Positions 417 to 4,509 of a stretch of 4,509 nucleotides of DNA are shown piece after piece. This DNA is from a virus (Monodnaviria; Loebvirae; Hofneiviricota; Faserviricetes; Tubulavirales), in the IMG/VR virus record IMGVR_UViG_2529293044_000013. One strand, given 5' to 3'. Below the pieces are notes generated by a model, which saw only the letters and a list, made by a program, of their open reading frames with translations, searched no databases and was not told where the DNA came from. Numbering within the stretch: position 1 is the first letter of the stretch; every line of letters begins with the position of its first letter. Position numbers and translations under genes: made by a program.

Positions 417-2012
<1,596 letters not shown>

Positions 2013-2016
2013 TTCA

Positions 2017-2187
2017 TCACCAGTAAAAACTAAATGGTTTTACAATTCGACGGAAATCCTGATCGGCTTTTTCAAGAATAACTGAAACAACATATTCTTC
2101 AATGGTTGTATTTTTATTGTAAATAATTCTTTCTATCTGCTCGACAGTGTATTCTGGCAATTTAACTTTAAATTCTTGAGTAGACAT
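2017..2187 (-). CDS. Unlisted small ORF, 56 aa, hydrophilic, function unknown; stop overlaps the RBS region of the pIII-like gene
   Basis: Hand translation of the minus strand: ATG at 2187..2185 preceded by GAGG (tttgtGAGGttttATG). Product [56 protein letters not shown], stop TGA at 2019..2017, 5 nt before the pIII ATG. Below the apparent length cutoff of the ORF track. Confidence 0.4.
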
Positions 2188-2277: not shown

Positions 2278-2305
2278 CCAAAAAAAGGGCGGAATATCCG
2301 CCCTT
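2278..2305 (-). terminator. Rho-independent terminator directly downstream of the major-coat-like gene
   Basis: Plus strand aaaaaaaGGGCGGaatatCCGCCCtt. On the minus-strand RNA this is an 8-bp GC-rich stem (AAGGGCGG / CCGCCCUU) with a 5-nt loop, followed by a run of U (seven A on the plus strand at 2280-2286). The major-coat stop is at 2322-2324. Confidence 0.75.
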
Positions 2306-2321
2306 CCTCATAAAAAACAAC

Positions 2322-2570
2322 TCAGATACTTCTGATGGCTCCCCATACTTTACGAACGCCAGCAAAAGTCAGATAAACTGTAACTCCTGCAACACCGATA
2401 GAAAGAATAACAGCAGAAACAGAAGACATATCAATACTGTTAGTCAATGATGAAAAATCGACTGTACCAGCAAAAGACGGAGATACAGCAAGAGCAGAAG
2501 CAGCGGAAAAAGATAAAGCTGCAACTTTCTTATCAACACCCTTAAAAAAATTGGTCATTTTTGCAAACAT
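2322..2570 (-). CDS. Major coat protein (pVIII-like), 82-aa precursor
   Basis: Start chosen at the ATG at 2570..2568 because AAGGAG lies ~9 nt upstream (ttaatAAGGAGactttaattATG); the track ORF 2322..2630 is a 5' over-extension. Product MFAKMTNFFKGVDKKVAALSFSAASALAVSPSFA / GTVDFSSLTNSIDMSSVSAVILSIGVAGVTVYLTFAGVRKVWGAIRSI: signal-like leader, then ~48 aa with acidic N-terminus, hydrophobic core and basic C-terminus, the classic inovirus major coat layout. Followed by the intrinsic terminator. Confidence 0.75.
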   Translation of the reverse strand: MFAKMTNFFKGVDKKVAALSFSAASALAVSPSFAGTVDFSSLTNSIDMSSVSAVILSIGVAGVTVYLTFAGVRKVWGAIRSI

Positions 2571-2572
2571 AA

Positions 2573-2746
2573 TTAAAGTCTCCTTATTAAACTCCAAATT
2601 GTGGAAATAATCATGCCAAGAAAAAAACAAAATACTGGCAGTGAAAATCCCGTTAAAAACGCCGAGGAATAAATCCCCGACACATCAGGTATCCCCACGC
2701 AAATAGCATTAATTTGCGTGGAAACTGAATCCGAATTAACAGACAT
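2573..2746 (-). CDS. Unlisted small ORF, 57 aa, small membrane protein; candidate minor coat protein (pVII/pIX-like position)
   Basis: Hand translation: ATG at 2746..2744, 4 nt after the TAG stop of the upstream gene; stop TAA at 2575..2573, 2 nt before the major-coat ATG. Product MSVNSDSVSTQINAICVGIPDVSGIYSSAFLTGFSLPVFCFFLGMIISTIWSLIRRL: acidic/polar N-terminus, ~20-residue hydrophobic segment, basic C-terminus. Weak RBS. Contains the 10-bp inverted repeat at 2695..2721. Confidence 0.4.
   Translation of the reverse strand: MSVNSDSVSTQINAICVGIPDVSGIYSSAFLTGFSLPVFCFFLGMIISTIWSLIRRL
2695..2721. other. Perfect 10-bp inverted repeat with 7-nt loop (potential RNA/DNA hairpin)
   Basis: ccacgcaaat (2695-2704), agcatta (loop), atttgcgtgg (2712-2721); the arms are exact reverse complements. 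No U-tract follows on either strand, so it is not a canonical intrinsic terminator. Confidence 0.5.
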
Positions 2747-2750
2747 AAAA

Positions 2751-4509
<1,759 letters not shown>

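What the first reader, a model, noticed from the sequence alone, without database searches (positions are those of the whole stretch)
2695..2721. Perfect 10-bp stem hairpin in the ssDNA-binding-gene to coat-gene junction
A perfect 10-bp inverted repeat with a 7-nt loop is unlikely by chance in this window. It is not followed by a U-tract, so it is not a simple terminator. It lies inside the candidate 57-aa ORF. In an ssDNA phage it could be a DNA hairpin in the packaged strand (packaging or replication signal), an RNA processing or stability element, or a protein operator.
Basis: seen in the sequence. Interest (0 to 1): 0.35.

Follow-up and report, generated by a model that had tools for sequence, protein, structure and literature searches.

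The report
Hairpin inside inovirus minor-coat gene
A real, perfectly paired 10-bp hairpin sits inside a small membrane-protein gene between the DNA-binding and major-coat genes of an E. coli filamentous prophage; it most likely tunes translation of that gene on the mRNA, but its function could not be proven because all known relatives are nearly identical.

Summary
Arms 2695-2704 and 2712-2721 pair perfectly around a 7-nt loop, with no U-tract on either strand. They lie in codons 9-18 of a 57-aa ORF (2746-2573, minus strand) between a gV-position gene and the g8 coat gene of an E. coli inovirus prophage.

It is moderately unlikely by chance: 4.5% of shuffled windows contain such a stem. Codon choice gives stronger evidence. 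The three wobble positions of each arm pair with each other, using rare codons. Synonymous recoding reaches the native hairpin energy in 0.2% of trials. All of ORF57 is unusually structured (z -4.5 against shuffles).

Covariation cannot be tested. ORF57 has no homologue below 93% identity. The 16 DNA variants show only one-sided changes, mostly Watson-Crick to G·U, and the stem is no more conserved than its surroundings.

The ORF57-g8 cassette is joined to three different Rep families and at least four gV-position genes. That excludes a Rep origin or a gV operator. Long hairpins downstream of gIV are better Ff-type packaging-signal candidates.

Best reading (about 0.4): an mRNA hairpin that modulates translation of a coupled, SD-less minor-coat gene, like the f1 gene VII/IX hairpin. 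Rivals are chance and a short Xanthomonas-type packaging signal inside a coding region. Interest is modest.

The parts
2695..2721 (-). Core hairpin: perfect 10-bp stem (CCACGCAAAT / ATTTGCGTGG) with a 7-nt loop (UAAUGCU on the coding strand). It covers codons 9-18 of ORF57.
2685..2728 (-). Extended RNA hairpin: 13 contiguous pairs (including 2 G·U), a 3-nt bulge, then 4 more pairs. It is the consensus structure of 15 variants.
2573..2746 (-). ORF57, a 57-aa protein with a C-terminal transmembrane segment and an RRL tail, in the position of the pVII/pIX-like minor coat genes. It is under purifying selection (pN/pS 0.22). The whole ORF folds into about 5 hairpins (RNA z -4.5).
2661..2681 (-). 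Second hairpin of the array (8 pairs, 5-nt loop).
2603..2651 (-). Third predicted, imperfect helix of the array. It encloses the T7 run.
2574..2596 (-). Last hairpin of the array. Most of the g8 Shine-Dalgarno sequence (AAGGAG, 2585-2580) lies in its loop.
2681..2683 (-). In-frame GUG (codon 22), 8-11 nt after the hairpin. GTG becomes ATG in some relatives. Possible internal start (speculative).
2692..2696 (-). GGGGA, a moderate SD-like motif 8 nt upstream of GUG22. It is base-paired in the extended stem.
2751..3086 (-). gV-position gene (111 aa, phrog_14411). Its stop codon lies 4 nt before the ORF57 AUG. This is the last gene of the replication module, and the mosaic boundary lies between it and ORF57.
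2322..2570 (-). g8 major coat gene (82 aa, phrog_2186). Its AUG lies 2 nt after the ORF57 stop and is preceded by a strong SD.
2285..2305 (-). Hairpin followed by a T-run, the intrinsic terminator after g8. It marks the 3' end of the conserved cassette.

Best explanation
The hairpin is a cis-acting structure of the phage mRNA, which has the same sense as the packaged strand. It lies at nucleotides +26 to +52 of ORF57, or +19 to +62 with its G·U-containing extension. ORF57 is the small minor-coat-type gene wedged between the two most highly expressed genes, gV and g8.

ORF57 has no properly spaced Shine-Dalgarno sequence in any module context. Its AUG always lies 3-5 nt after the stop codon of the upstream gene. 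It is therefore probably translated by termination-reinitiation coupling, as f1 and IKe gene VII is.

I propose that the hairpin, with the four weaker hairpins that follow, sets how many ribosomes enter or traverse ORF57, and most likely limits them. It would also keep the in-frame GUG22 and its GGGGA motif masked unless an upstream ribosome opens the stem. This is the logic of the f1 gene VII hairpin that masks the gene IX start.

Shown: the hairpin exists; codon choice favours it; every variant keeps it; it is linked to ORF57-g8 and not to any replication module; and the coupling geometry is present. Inferred: that it acts on RNA rather than ssDNA, that its effect is on translation, and the direction of that effect.
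For: A perfect stem is present. RNA fold z is -3.2 locally and -4.5 for the whole ORF, with 0 of 200 shuffles as stable. The 116 nt downstream of the hairpin still give z -2.6.

Synonymous recoding with the phage's own codon usage reaches the native hairpin energy in 0.22% of 5000 trials and the native local MFE in 0.34%. None of 1000 recodings reaches the whole-ORF MFE. ORF57 is the most extreme of 20 coding windows of 174 nt in this phage (z -3.5; the others range from -2.5 to +1.9).

The arms use rare codons: TCC 9%, GTG 14%, GGG 9%, ACG 23%. The third-codon positions of the two arms pair with each other (sequence).

All 16 natural variants keep the hairpin as the local MFE structure (-19.9 to -26.4 kcal/mol). 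Of 7 substitution types in the extended stem, 5 interconvert Watson-Crick and G·U pairs, which RNA tolerates and DNA tolerates less well. 99.2% of cells are paired.

The ORF57 AUG lies 3-5 nt after the upstream stop codon in every module combination, and no SD is at working distance. ORF57 is a real coding gene (pN/pS 0.22).

Precedent: a hairpin inside f1 gene VII ends just upstream of gene IX and makes its translation depend on coupling (Blumer et al. 1987, as summarised in PMC12548453). The corresponding M13 hairpin is seen.
Against: There are no compensatory double changes, so covariation has no power. The stem is not more conserved than the rest of ORF57: 3 of 20 core-stem columns vary, against 18 of 140 columns outside the extended stem. 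Two variants weaken it (A·C in L031, G/G in L020).

The whole ORF57-g8 cassette is 93-98% identical among relatives, so conservation of the hairpin is uninformative.

The hairpin does not cover the ORF57 start or the g8 SD and start. A direct masking role therefore exists only for the hypothetical GUG22 start.

The analogous segments are not unusually structured in M13 (z +0.8) and only weakly so in the E24377A-type phage (z -1.8), so this is not a general inovirus feature.

The statistics were computed after the hairpin had been picked out. There is no Rfam family match.
Confidence: 0.4

Rival explanations
1. It is a fortuitous palindrome. The hairpin is a by-product of the amino-acid sequence and drift in a young, nearly clonal gene cassette, and has no function of its own.
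For: 4.5% of shuffled windows contain a perfect 10-bp stem, and the feature was selected after the fact. No covariation is seen. The stem varies as much as its surroundings. One-sided changes break pairs in two variants. ORF57 has no homologues outside a clade at least 93% identical, so long-term preservation cannot be shown.
Against: Given the protein sequence, only 0.2-0.3% of synonymous recodings fold as well. Rare codons are used at exactly the paired wobble positions. The whole ORF is the structural outlier of the phage. The position between gV and g8 is where Ff phages carry translational-control structure.
Confidence: 0.27
2. It is a packaging signal: a short DNA hairpin on the packaged single strand. 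It would be recognised by the assembly proteins (ORF57 and g1) and carried inside the tip-protein gene, so that the morphogenesis module stays self-sufficient when it recombines with different replication modules.
For: In Xanthomonas integrative inoviruses the packaging signal is a 20-26-nt hairpin (7-8-bp stem, 6-10-nt loop) that lies inside coding regions and interacts genetically with gVII and gI (bioRxiv 10.1101/2023.12.30.573655 and 10.1101/2024.03.19.585677).

Here the hairpin is 27 nt, forms in ssDNA (z -3.6), and is co-inherited with g1-g6-g3-g8-ORF57 at about 97% identity while the Rep and gV-position genes differ. It ranks 4th or 5th among ssDNA hairpins in two full prophages.
Against: Both complete prophage types examined have a much longer hairpin about 250-340 nt downstream of gIV. 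One is a hairpin of roughly two dozen pairs (14 perfect pairs plus an 87%-complementary extension) at L001 12699-12760. The other has 35-nt arms at L037 5753-5832. This is the Ff/IKe packaging-signal position, and these phages encode gIV as Ff does.

The Xanthomonas stem consensus GGX(A/-)CCG(C/T)G is absent (sequence). In most relatives the loop-closing pair is G·T, and the extension relies on G·T pairs, which are poor in DNA.
Confidence: 0.13
3. It is an mRNA processing or stability element. The hairpin would act as a barrier to exonucleases or to RNase E, or as a protective 5' stem after cleavage, and so set the relative abundance of the gV and g8 message segments.
For: A strong, conserved local RNA structure lies between two genes that need different expression levels. 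An AU-rich single-stranded stretch (GAUUCAGUUU) lies just 5' of the stem. From my own knowledge, Ff mRNAs are shaped by RNase E-dependent processing upstream of gene V and gene VIII (Steege laboratory work; not re-read here).
Against: No promoter-like site is near the hairpin that would place it at a primary 5' end. g8 lies downstream and shares the 3' terminator, so a 3' barrier here would favour gV rather than g8. The stem is too short for RNase III. There are no RNA-end data.
Confidence: 0.12
4. It is a double-stranded DNA binding site: an operator for a phage regulator, a Rep origin, or a recombinase core site with a 10-7-10 palindrome.
For: The 10-7-10 dyad symmetry is typical of dimeric binding sites.
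Against: No second copy or half-site enrichment exists anywhere in the phage genome, and the pattern occurs in no other viral contigs.

The hairpin is invariant next to three Rep families (PF02486, PF05840, PF05155), at least four gV-position proteins and variable or absent ORF56, so no module-specific protein can be its partner. The operator-like repeats of the repressor/Rep promoter region have a different sequence (I3 and I16). By inspection the arms do not match dif in the correct orientation.
Confidence: 0.04

Closest known systems
Phage f1/M13 gene VII hairpin that masks the gene IX initiation site (Blumer, Ivey & Steege 1987; the RNA-unfolding model of translational coupling, reviewed in PMC12548453)
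   Same: It is a local mRNA hairpin inside the coding sequence of a tiny minor-coat gene between gene V and gene VIII. The small gene has a defective, SD-less start placed a few nt after the upstream stop codon. [quoted passage not shown]
   Different: Here there is one 57-aa ORF instead of genes VII and IX, and the masked start is hypothetical. The stem is perfect and short (10 bp), whereas the f1 stem is long and imperfect. The ORF57 protein has no detectable similarity to pVII/pIX-like proteins of a sister phage. The M13 segment is not unusually structured overall (z +0.8).
[quoted passage not shown]
   Same: It is a short DNA hairpin of similar size (20-26 nt against 27 nt; loop 6-10 nt against 7 nt), located inside a coding region of an integrative inovirus. 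It has genetic links to gVII and gI.
   Different: The stem consensus GGX(A/-)CCG(C/T)G and the conserved loop T and C are not present. The stem here is half AT. The Xanthomonas phages lack gIV and gIX, whereas this phage has gIV and long IG hairpins in the Ff packaging-signal position.
Ff/IKe packaging signal (a long imperfect hairpin in the intergenic region after gene IV)
   Same: It is a hairpin on the packaged strand of an E. coli inovirus.
   Different: The Ff packaging signal is 54-78 nt, non-coding and directly downstream of gIV (legend of Figure 3F). The feature here is 27 nt, coding, and five genes away from gIV. Other hairpins in these prophages fit the Ff description better.
Rho-independent terminator
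   Same: It has a stem-loop with a GC-containing base.
   Different: It has no U-tract on either strand and the scan does not call it. The true terminator of the operon is at 2285-2305.

Membership tests
Ff-type translational-coupling hairpin (f1 gene VII/IX) | The hairpin lies within the coding sequence of a small minor-coat gene between gV and gVIII. | tested here: met
   It lies in codons 9-18 of ORF57, which is flanked by the gV-position gene and g8.
Ff-type translational-coupling hairpin (f1 gene VII/IX) | The hairpin ends just upstream of, and occludes, the initiation region of the next cistron. | tested here: inconclusive
   The g8 start is 125 nt downstream and its SD is not in this stem. 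Only a hypothetical in-frame GUG22 with a paired GGGGA fits. V22M (GTG to ATG) occurs in two sequence backgrounds.
Ff-type translational-coupling hairpin (f1 gene VII/IX) | The small gene has a defective start, with stop and start codons close enough for coupling. | tested here: met
   The upstream stop codon is 3-5 nt before the ORF57 AUG in all module contexts. No SD is at working distance. The ORF57 stop is 2 nt before the g8 AUG.
Ff-type translational-coupling hairpin (f1 gene VII/IX) | Downstream translation depends on upstream translation opening the stem. | not testable with these tools
   This needs reporter fusions with stop-codon and stem mutants.
Xanthomonas-type short packaging signal | A 20-26-nt DNA hairpin with a 7-8-bp GC-rich stem and a 6-10-nt loop, which may lie in a coding region. 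| tested here: inconclusive
   The feature is 27 nt with a 10-bp stem (5 G-C pairs) and a 7-nt loop, in a coding region. Size and location fit, but the stem is not GC-rich.
Xanthomonas-type short packaging signal | Stem consensus GGX(A/-)CCG(C/T)G and conserved T and C in the loop. | tested here: not met
   The sequence CCACGCAAAT-TAATGCT-ATTTGCGTGG contains no CCG(C/T)G on either strand.
Xanthomonas-type short packaging signal | It supports encapsidation of a replicon in trans. | not testable with these tools
   This needs a transducing-particle assay.
Ff-type packaging signal | A long imperfect hairpin (about 54-78 nt) in the non-coding region just after gIV. | tested here: not met
   The feature is 27 nt and coding. 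Long IG hairpins exist elsewhere, at L001 12699-12760 and L037 5753-5832.
Rolling-circle plus-strand origin (Rep nick-site hairpin) | It is specific to, and co-inherited with, its Rep protein. | tested here: not met
   The same hairpin occurs with Rep_trans, Phage_GPA and G2P_X_C replication modules.
Intrinsic terminator | A stem-loop followed by a U-tract. | tested here: not met
Curated RNA families (Rfam 15) | A match to any covariance model. | tested here: not met
   There are 0 matches at E<=1 in the whole window.

The most novel reading that the evidence does not exclude
The hairpin is the phage's packaging signal, or part of it, embedded in the gene for the tip protein that recognises it. 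The g1-to-ORF57 morphogenesis module would then be a self-contained, portable unit that can be joined to unrelated replication and integration modules (Rep_trans with integration near dif, Phage_GPA with an IS110-type recombinase, G2P). A second unexcluded reading is that ORF57 is a nested gene pair: a 57-aa protein and a 36-aa protein made from GUG22, with the hairpin gating the internal start. That would supply the two tip proteins from one ORF.
Probability: 0.13. Interest if true: 0.6.

Novelty: new member of a known kind. Interest (0 to 1): 0.3.

Why it matters
If the hairpin is functional, it shows how a mosaic E. coli inovirus keeps expression of an assembly-initiating minor coat protein under cis control that travels with the gene. 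Alternatively, it shows that the phage's packaging specificity travels with the gene. Either way the control would persist whichever replication module the cassette lands next to.

It also points to ORF57, which NCBI's PGAP annotation omits in the three complete-genome records inspected, as a real and conserved gene. The practical value is modest: better annotation of these prophages and a defined target for synonymous-mutation experiments.

Tried and rejected
**Covariation**
- I gathered every relative I could find: the E. coli complete genomes, IMG/VR, metagenomes, GTDB species representatives, protein-cluster look-ups and encoding contigs.
- Only 16 unique ORF57 DNA variants emerged, all at least 93% identical. 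There are no double changes, so the count of structure pairs has no power.

**Homology searches**
- The INPHARED phage collection gave no DNA or protein match for ORF57 or g8.
- Rfam gave nothing.
- PHROGs and Pfam gave no family for ORF57.

**Readings rejected**
- Terminator: no U-tract.
- Promoter for g8 at or near the hairpin: none found by the scan or by eye.
- Repeated operator: no other copies.
- Rep origin, gV operator or ORF56 operator: excluded by module swapping.
- dif/XerCD-like core site: the arms do not match dif in the correct orientation (inspection).
- Recombination breakpoint: the mosaic boundary is at the ORF57 ATG, 25 nt from the stem, not at the stem.
- Similarity of ORF57 to the g7-like and g9-like proteins of the E24377A-type phage: none.

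- A first control run of the recoding test timed out and was repeated with fewer replicates.
- NZ_CP028768 is not in the collection.

Full report
**Context**

The window is part of a filamentous (inovirus) prophage of E. coli with its genes on the minus strand.

| Coordinates | Feature | Evidence |
|---|---|---|
| from 3096 to about 4160 | Rep_trans replication protein | |
| 3086-2751 | 111-aa gene in the gV position (phrog_14411) | |
| 2746-2573 | 57-aa ORF with no family match (ORF57) | |
| 2570-2322 | g8 major coat gene (phrog_2186) | |
| 2285-2305 | intrinsic terminator | |
| 2187-2017 | 56-aa ORF (ORF56) | |
| 2012-417 | g3-like gene | |
| 399-130 | g6-like gene | |

- The Rep gene is cut at about 4161 by an IS100 insertion, and the rest of the window (about 4161-4509) is IS100.
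- Forty complete E. coli genomes carry related prophages, often in tandem.
- An intact copy (L001, strain AST20) continues with g1 (Zot domain), gIV (secretin), an intergenic region of about 840 nt, an oppositely oriented small gene, and a 398-aa Rep.
- PGAP does not annotate ORF57 in that record.

**Observation**

The inverted repeat is exactly as described: arms 2695-2704 and 2712-2721, 10 of 10 complementary, with a 7-nt loop. No U-tract follows on either strand. It covers codons 9-18 of ORF57.

- Dinucleotide-preserving shuffles give at least one perfect 10-bp stem (loop 3-12) in 4.5% of windows.
- The local fold is -19.8 kcal/mol as RNA (z -3.2) and -10.5 kcal/mol as DNA (z -3.6).
- In RNA the stem extends through G·U pairs to 13 contiguous pairs, then a 3-nt bulge and 4 more pairs (2728-2685).

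**Is ORF57 a gene?**

Yes, most probably.

- It fills the gV-g8 gap exactly. Its AUG lies 4 nt after the gV stop, and its UAA lies 2 nt before the g8 AUG.
- It ends in a transmembrane segment plus RRL, like pVII/pIX-type tip proteins.
- Among 15 unique full-length DNA variants, pN/pS is 0.22. The value is similar in the N-terminal part (0.29) and the C-terminal part (0.18).
- It is an orphan. Only two 90% protein clusters exist, both at least 93% identical. A HMMER scan of 1.84 billion representatives adds only one weak (E 7e-06), multi-stretch match to a 411-aa protein that I took to be spurious and did not examine further.

**Comparative evidence**

I collected every relative available. This gave 16 unique ORF57 sequences.

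- All 16 keep the hairpin as the local MFE structure.
- Changes in the extended stem are all one-sided:
  - A-U to G·U at the loop-closing pair, where most relatives carry G;
  - C-G to U·G;
  - U·G to C-G;
  - U·G to U-A;
  - A-U to G·U in the outer helix.
- Two changes break a pair: A·C in L031 and G/G in L020.
- There are no compensatory double changes, and the shuffle control has no power.
- The stem is not more conserved than the rest of the ORF. 3 of 20 core-stem columns vary, against 18 of 140 columns outside the extended stem.
- The whole ORF57-g8 cassette is 93-98% identical even in phages whose g3 and ORF56 are only 50-80% identical.

Conservation therefore neither supports nor refutes function.

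**Codon-level evidence**

The register is such that the third-codon positions of the 5' arm (TCC, ACG, CAA) pair with the third-codon positions of the 3' arm (GTG, TGC, ATT). Three of the ten pairs are therefore free to be chosen synonymously.

- The codons used are rare in this phage: TCC 9%, GTG 14%, GGG 9%, ACG 23%.
- Recoding ORF57 synonymously with the phage's codon usage reaches the native hairpin energy in 0.22% of 5000 trials and the native local MFE in 0.34%. It never reaches the whole-ORF MFE in 1000 trials.
- In the same test on 20 coding windows of 174 nt across the phage, ORF57 is the outlier. Its z is -3.5, and the others range from -2.5 to +1.9.
- Against dinucleotide shuffles the whole ORF has z -4.5 as RNA (0 of 200) and -4.0 as DNA.
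- The 116 nt downstream of the hairpin still give z -2.6.

The hairpin is therefore the strongest member of an array of about five hairpins that fills ORF57. This is the main argument that it is more than chance. The caveat is that the tests were made after the feature had been picked out.

**What the mosaic structure excludes**

The identical cassette is found downstream of several different replication modules:

- Rep_trans plus the 111-aa protein;
- Phage_GPA plus a 141-aa protein;
- G2P_X_C plus Phage_DNA_bind proteins (116 or 123 aa);
- G2P_X_C plus a 106-aa protein.

The boundary lies exactly at the ORF57 AUG.

- A Rep-specific origin or a gV-specific operator cannot sit in the cassette.
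- ORF56 downstream also varies or is absent, so it is not a partner either.
- The arm sequence occurs nowhere else in the phage.
- The palindrome occurs in no other viral contigs.
- No promoter-like site is nearby.

**Packaging signal?**

Two preprints show that Xanthomonas integrative inoviruses use 20-26-nt hairpins inside coding regions as packaging signals. Those signals interact genetically with gVII and gI. This reading therefore deserves weight. Two observations favour it:

- The hairpin is co-inherited with g1-ORF57 at about 97% identity.
- The Rep and gV-position genes of the two phage types share no detectable DNA similarity.

Three observations argue against it:

- Both complete prophage types I examined encode a secretin annotated with the same protein accession.
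- Both types also carry a far longer hairpin about 250-340 nt downstream of that gene, which is the Ff/IKe packaging-signal position.
  - L001 has a 14-bp perfect stem plus an extension at 12699-12760.
  - L037 has 35-nt arms at 5753-5832.
- The Xanthomonas consensus is absent, and much of the extended stem relies on G·U pairs.

I give this reading about 0.13.

**Best explanation**

ORF57 lacks a usable SD in every context, and its AUG always lies 3-5 nt after the upstream stop codon. This is the geometry of the f1/IKe gene V-VII junction, where a defective start is made functional by coupling. In f1, a hairpin inside gene VII ends just upstream of gene IX and makes its translation depend on ribosomes opening the stem (the M13 fold is).

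Here the stem ends 8-11 nt upstream of an in-frame GUG (codon 22). The GGGGA motif of that GUG is paired in the extended stem. Codon 22 is GTG or ATG in all variants, and V22M occurs in two backgrounds.

I therefore favour an mRNA structure that modulates, and probably limits, ribosome traffic through this minor-coat gene and masks the internal start region. My confidence is about 0.4. The RNA level, the translational effect and its direction are all inferred. A processing or stability role (0.12) and pure chance (0.27) remain live alternatives.

**Verdict**

The feature is real and correctly described. It is probably functional and probably acts on RNA. It is a new member of a known kind of element in the gV-gVIII block of filamentous phages. 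Comparative proof is impossible at present, so interest is modest.

Noticed in passing
window 4161-4509 (IS100); Rep ORF from 3096 to about 4160: An IS100 (IS21-family) element interrupts the Rep gene. About 43 N-terminal codons are missing compared with the intact 398-aa Rep of L001, so this prophage copy is probably replication-defective. A perfect 10-bp inverted repeat at 4229-4249 lies in the IS100 end.
   Followed up: partly
window 2747-2760; loci L006, L009, L010, L016, L020, L026, L031: A sharp mosaic boundary lies exactly at the ORF57 AUG. The ORF57-g8-terminator cassette is 93-98% identical in phages that carry three different Rep families and at least four different gV-position genes, and whose g3 and ORF56 are only 50-80% identical.
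   Followed up: yes
window 2621-2627 (T7 run in ORF57): Homopolymer-length variants occur in several assemblies (P0003 and P0005, both 141 aa; T6 in L008/L015). They fuse the N-terminal part of ORF57 to the g8 reading frame, which is open for many codons upstream of the g8 AUG. Sequencing error and real slippage were not distinguished.
   Followed up: partly
L037 13533-14498 and 5753-5832 (E. coli AST85, NZ_AP043644.1): A sister prophage with the same morphogenesis genes carries a Phage_GPA-type Rep and an IS110-family recombinase gene. It is inserted between ybiB and hcxB rather than near dif. It has an 80-nt hairpin with 35-nt arms (94% complementary) downstream of gIV, a good Ff-type packaging-signal candidate.
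   Followed up: partly
L001 12699-12760, also present in L002 (E24377A): A long hairpin (14-bp perfect GC-rich stem plus an 87%-complementary extension, followed by a T-run) lies about 280 nt downstream of gIV. It is shared by phages with different structural modules but the same Rep_trans module. It is a candidate terminator and/or packaging signal.
   Followed up: partly
window 788-971: An 18-nt tandem repeat, 10.2 copies at 96% identity, lies inside the g3-like gene. It encodes a Gly-Thr/Gly-Ser linker, and its length varies among relatives.
   Followed up: no
window 2017-2187 (minus strand): The 56-aa ORF between g8 and g3 looks ribbon-helix-helix-like by eye (a beta-strand FKVKLPE followed by two helices). 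It has only a weak HTH_40 Pfam hit, and it is replaced by unrelated 63-64-aa ORFs or is absent in relatives.
   Followed up: no
window 2753-2774: A perfect 8-bp hairpin (ATTTATCC/GGATAAAT, 6-nt loop) spans the gV stop codon just upstream of the ORF57 AUG. It belongs to the replication module and is not present in relatives with other gV-position genes.
   Followed up: no
L002 6877-6990 (E24377A): The sister phage with the same Rep/gV module has an unannotated 33-aa pVII-like ORF (MLTTEFFVLILFGAVPVLIFSLAFIGGVITGRR), followed by an annotated 52-aa ORF, in place of ORF57. It has no comparable hairpin.
   Followed up: partly
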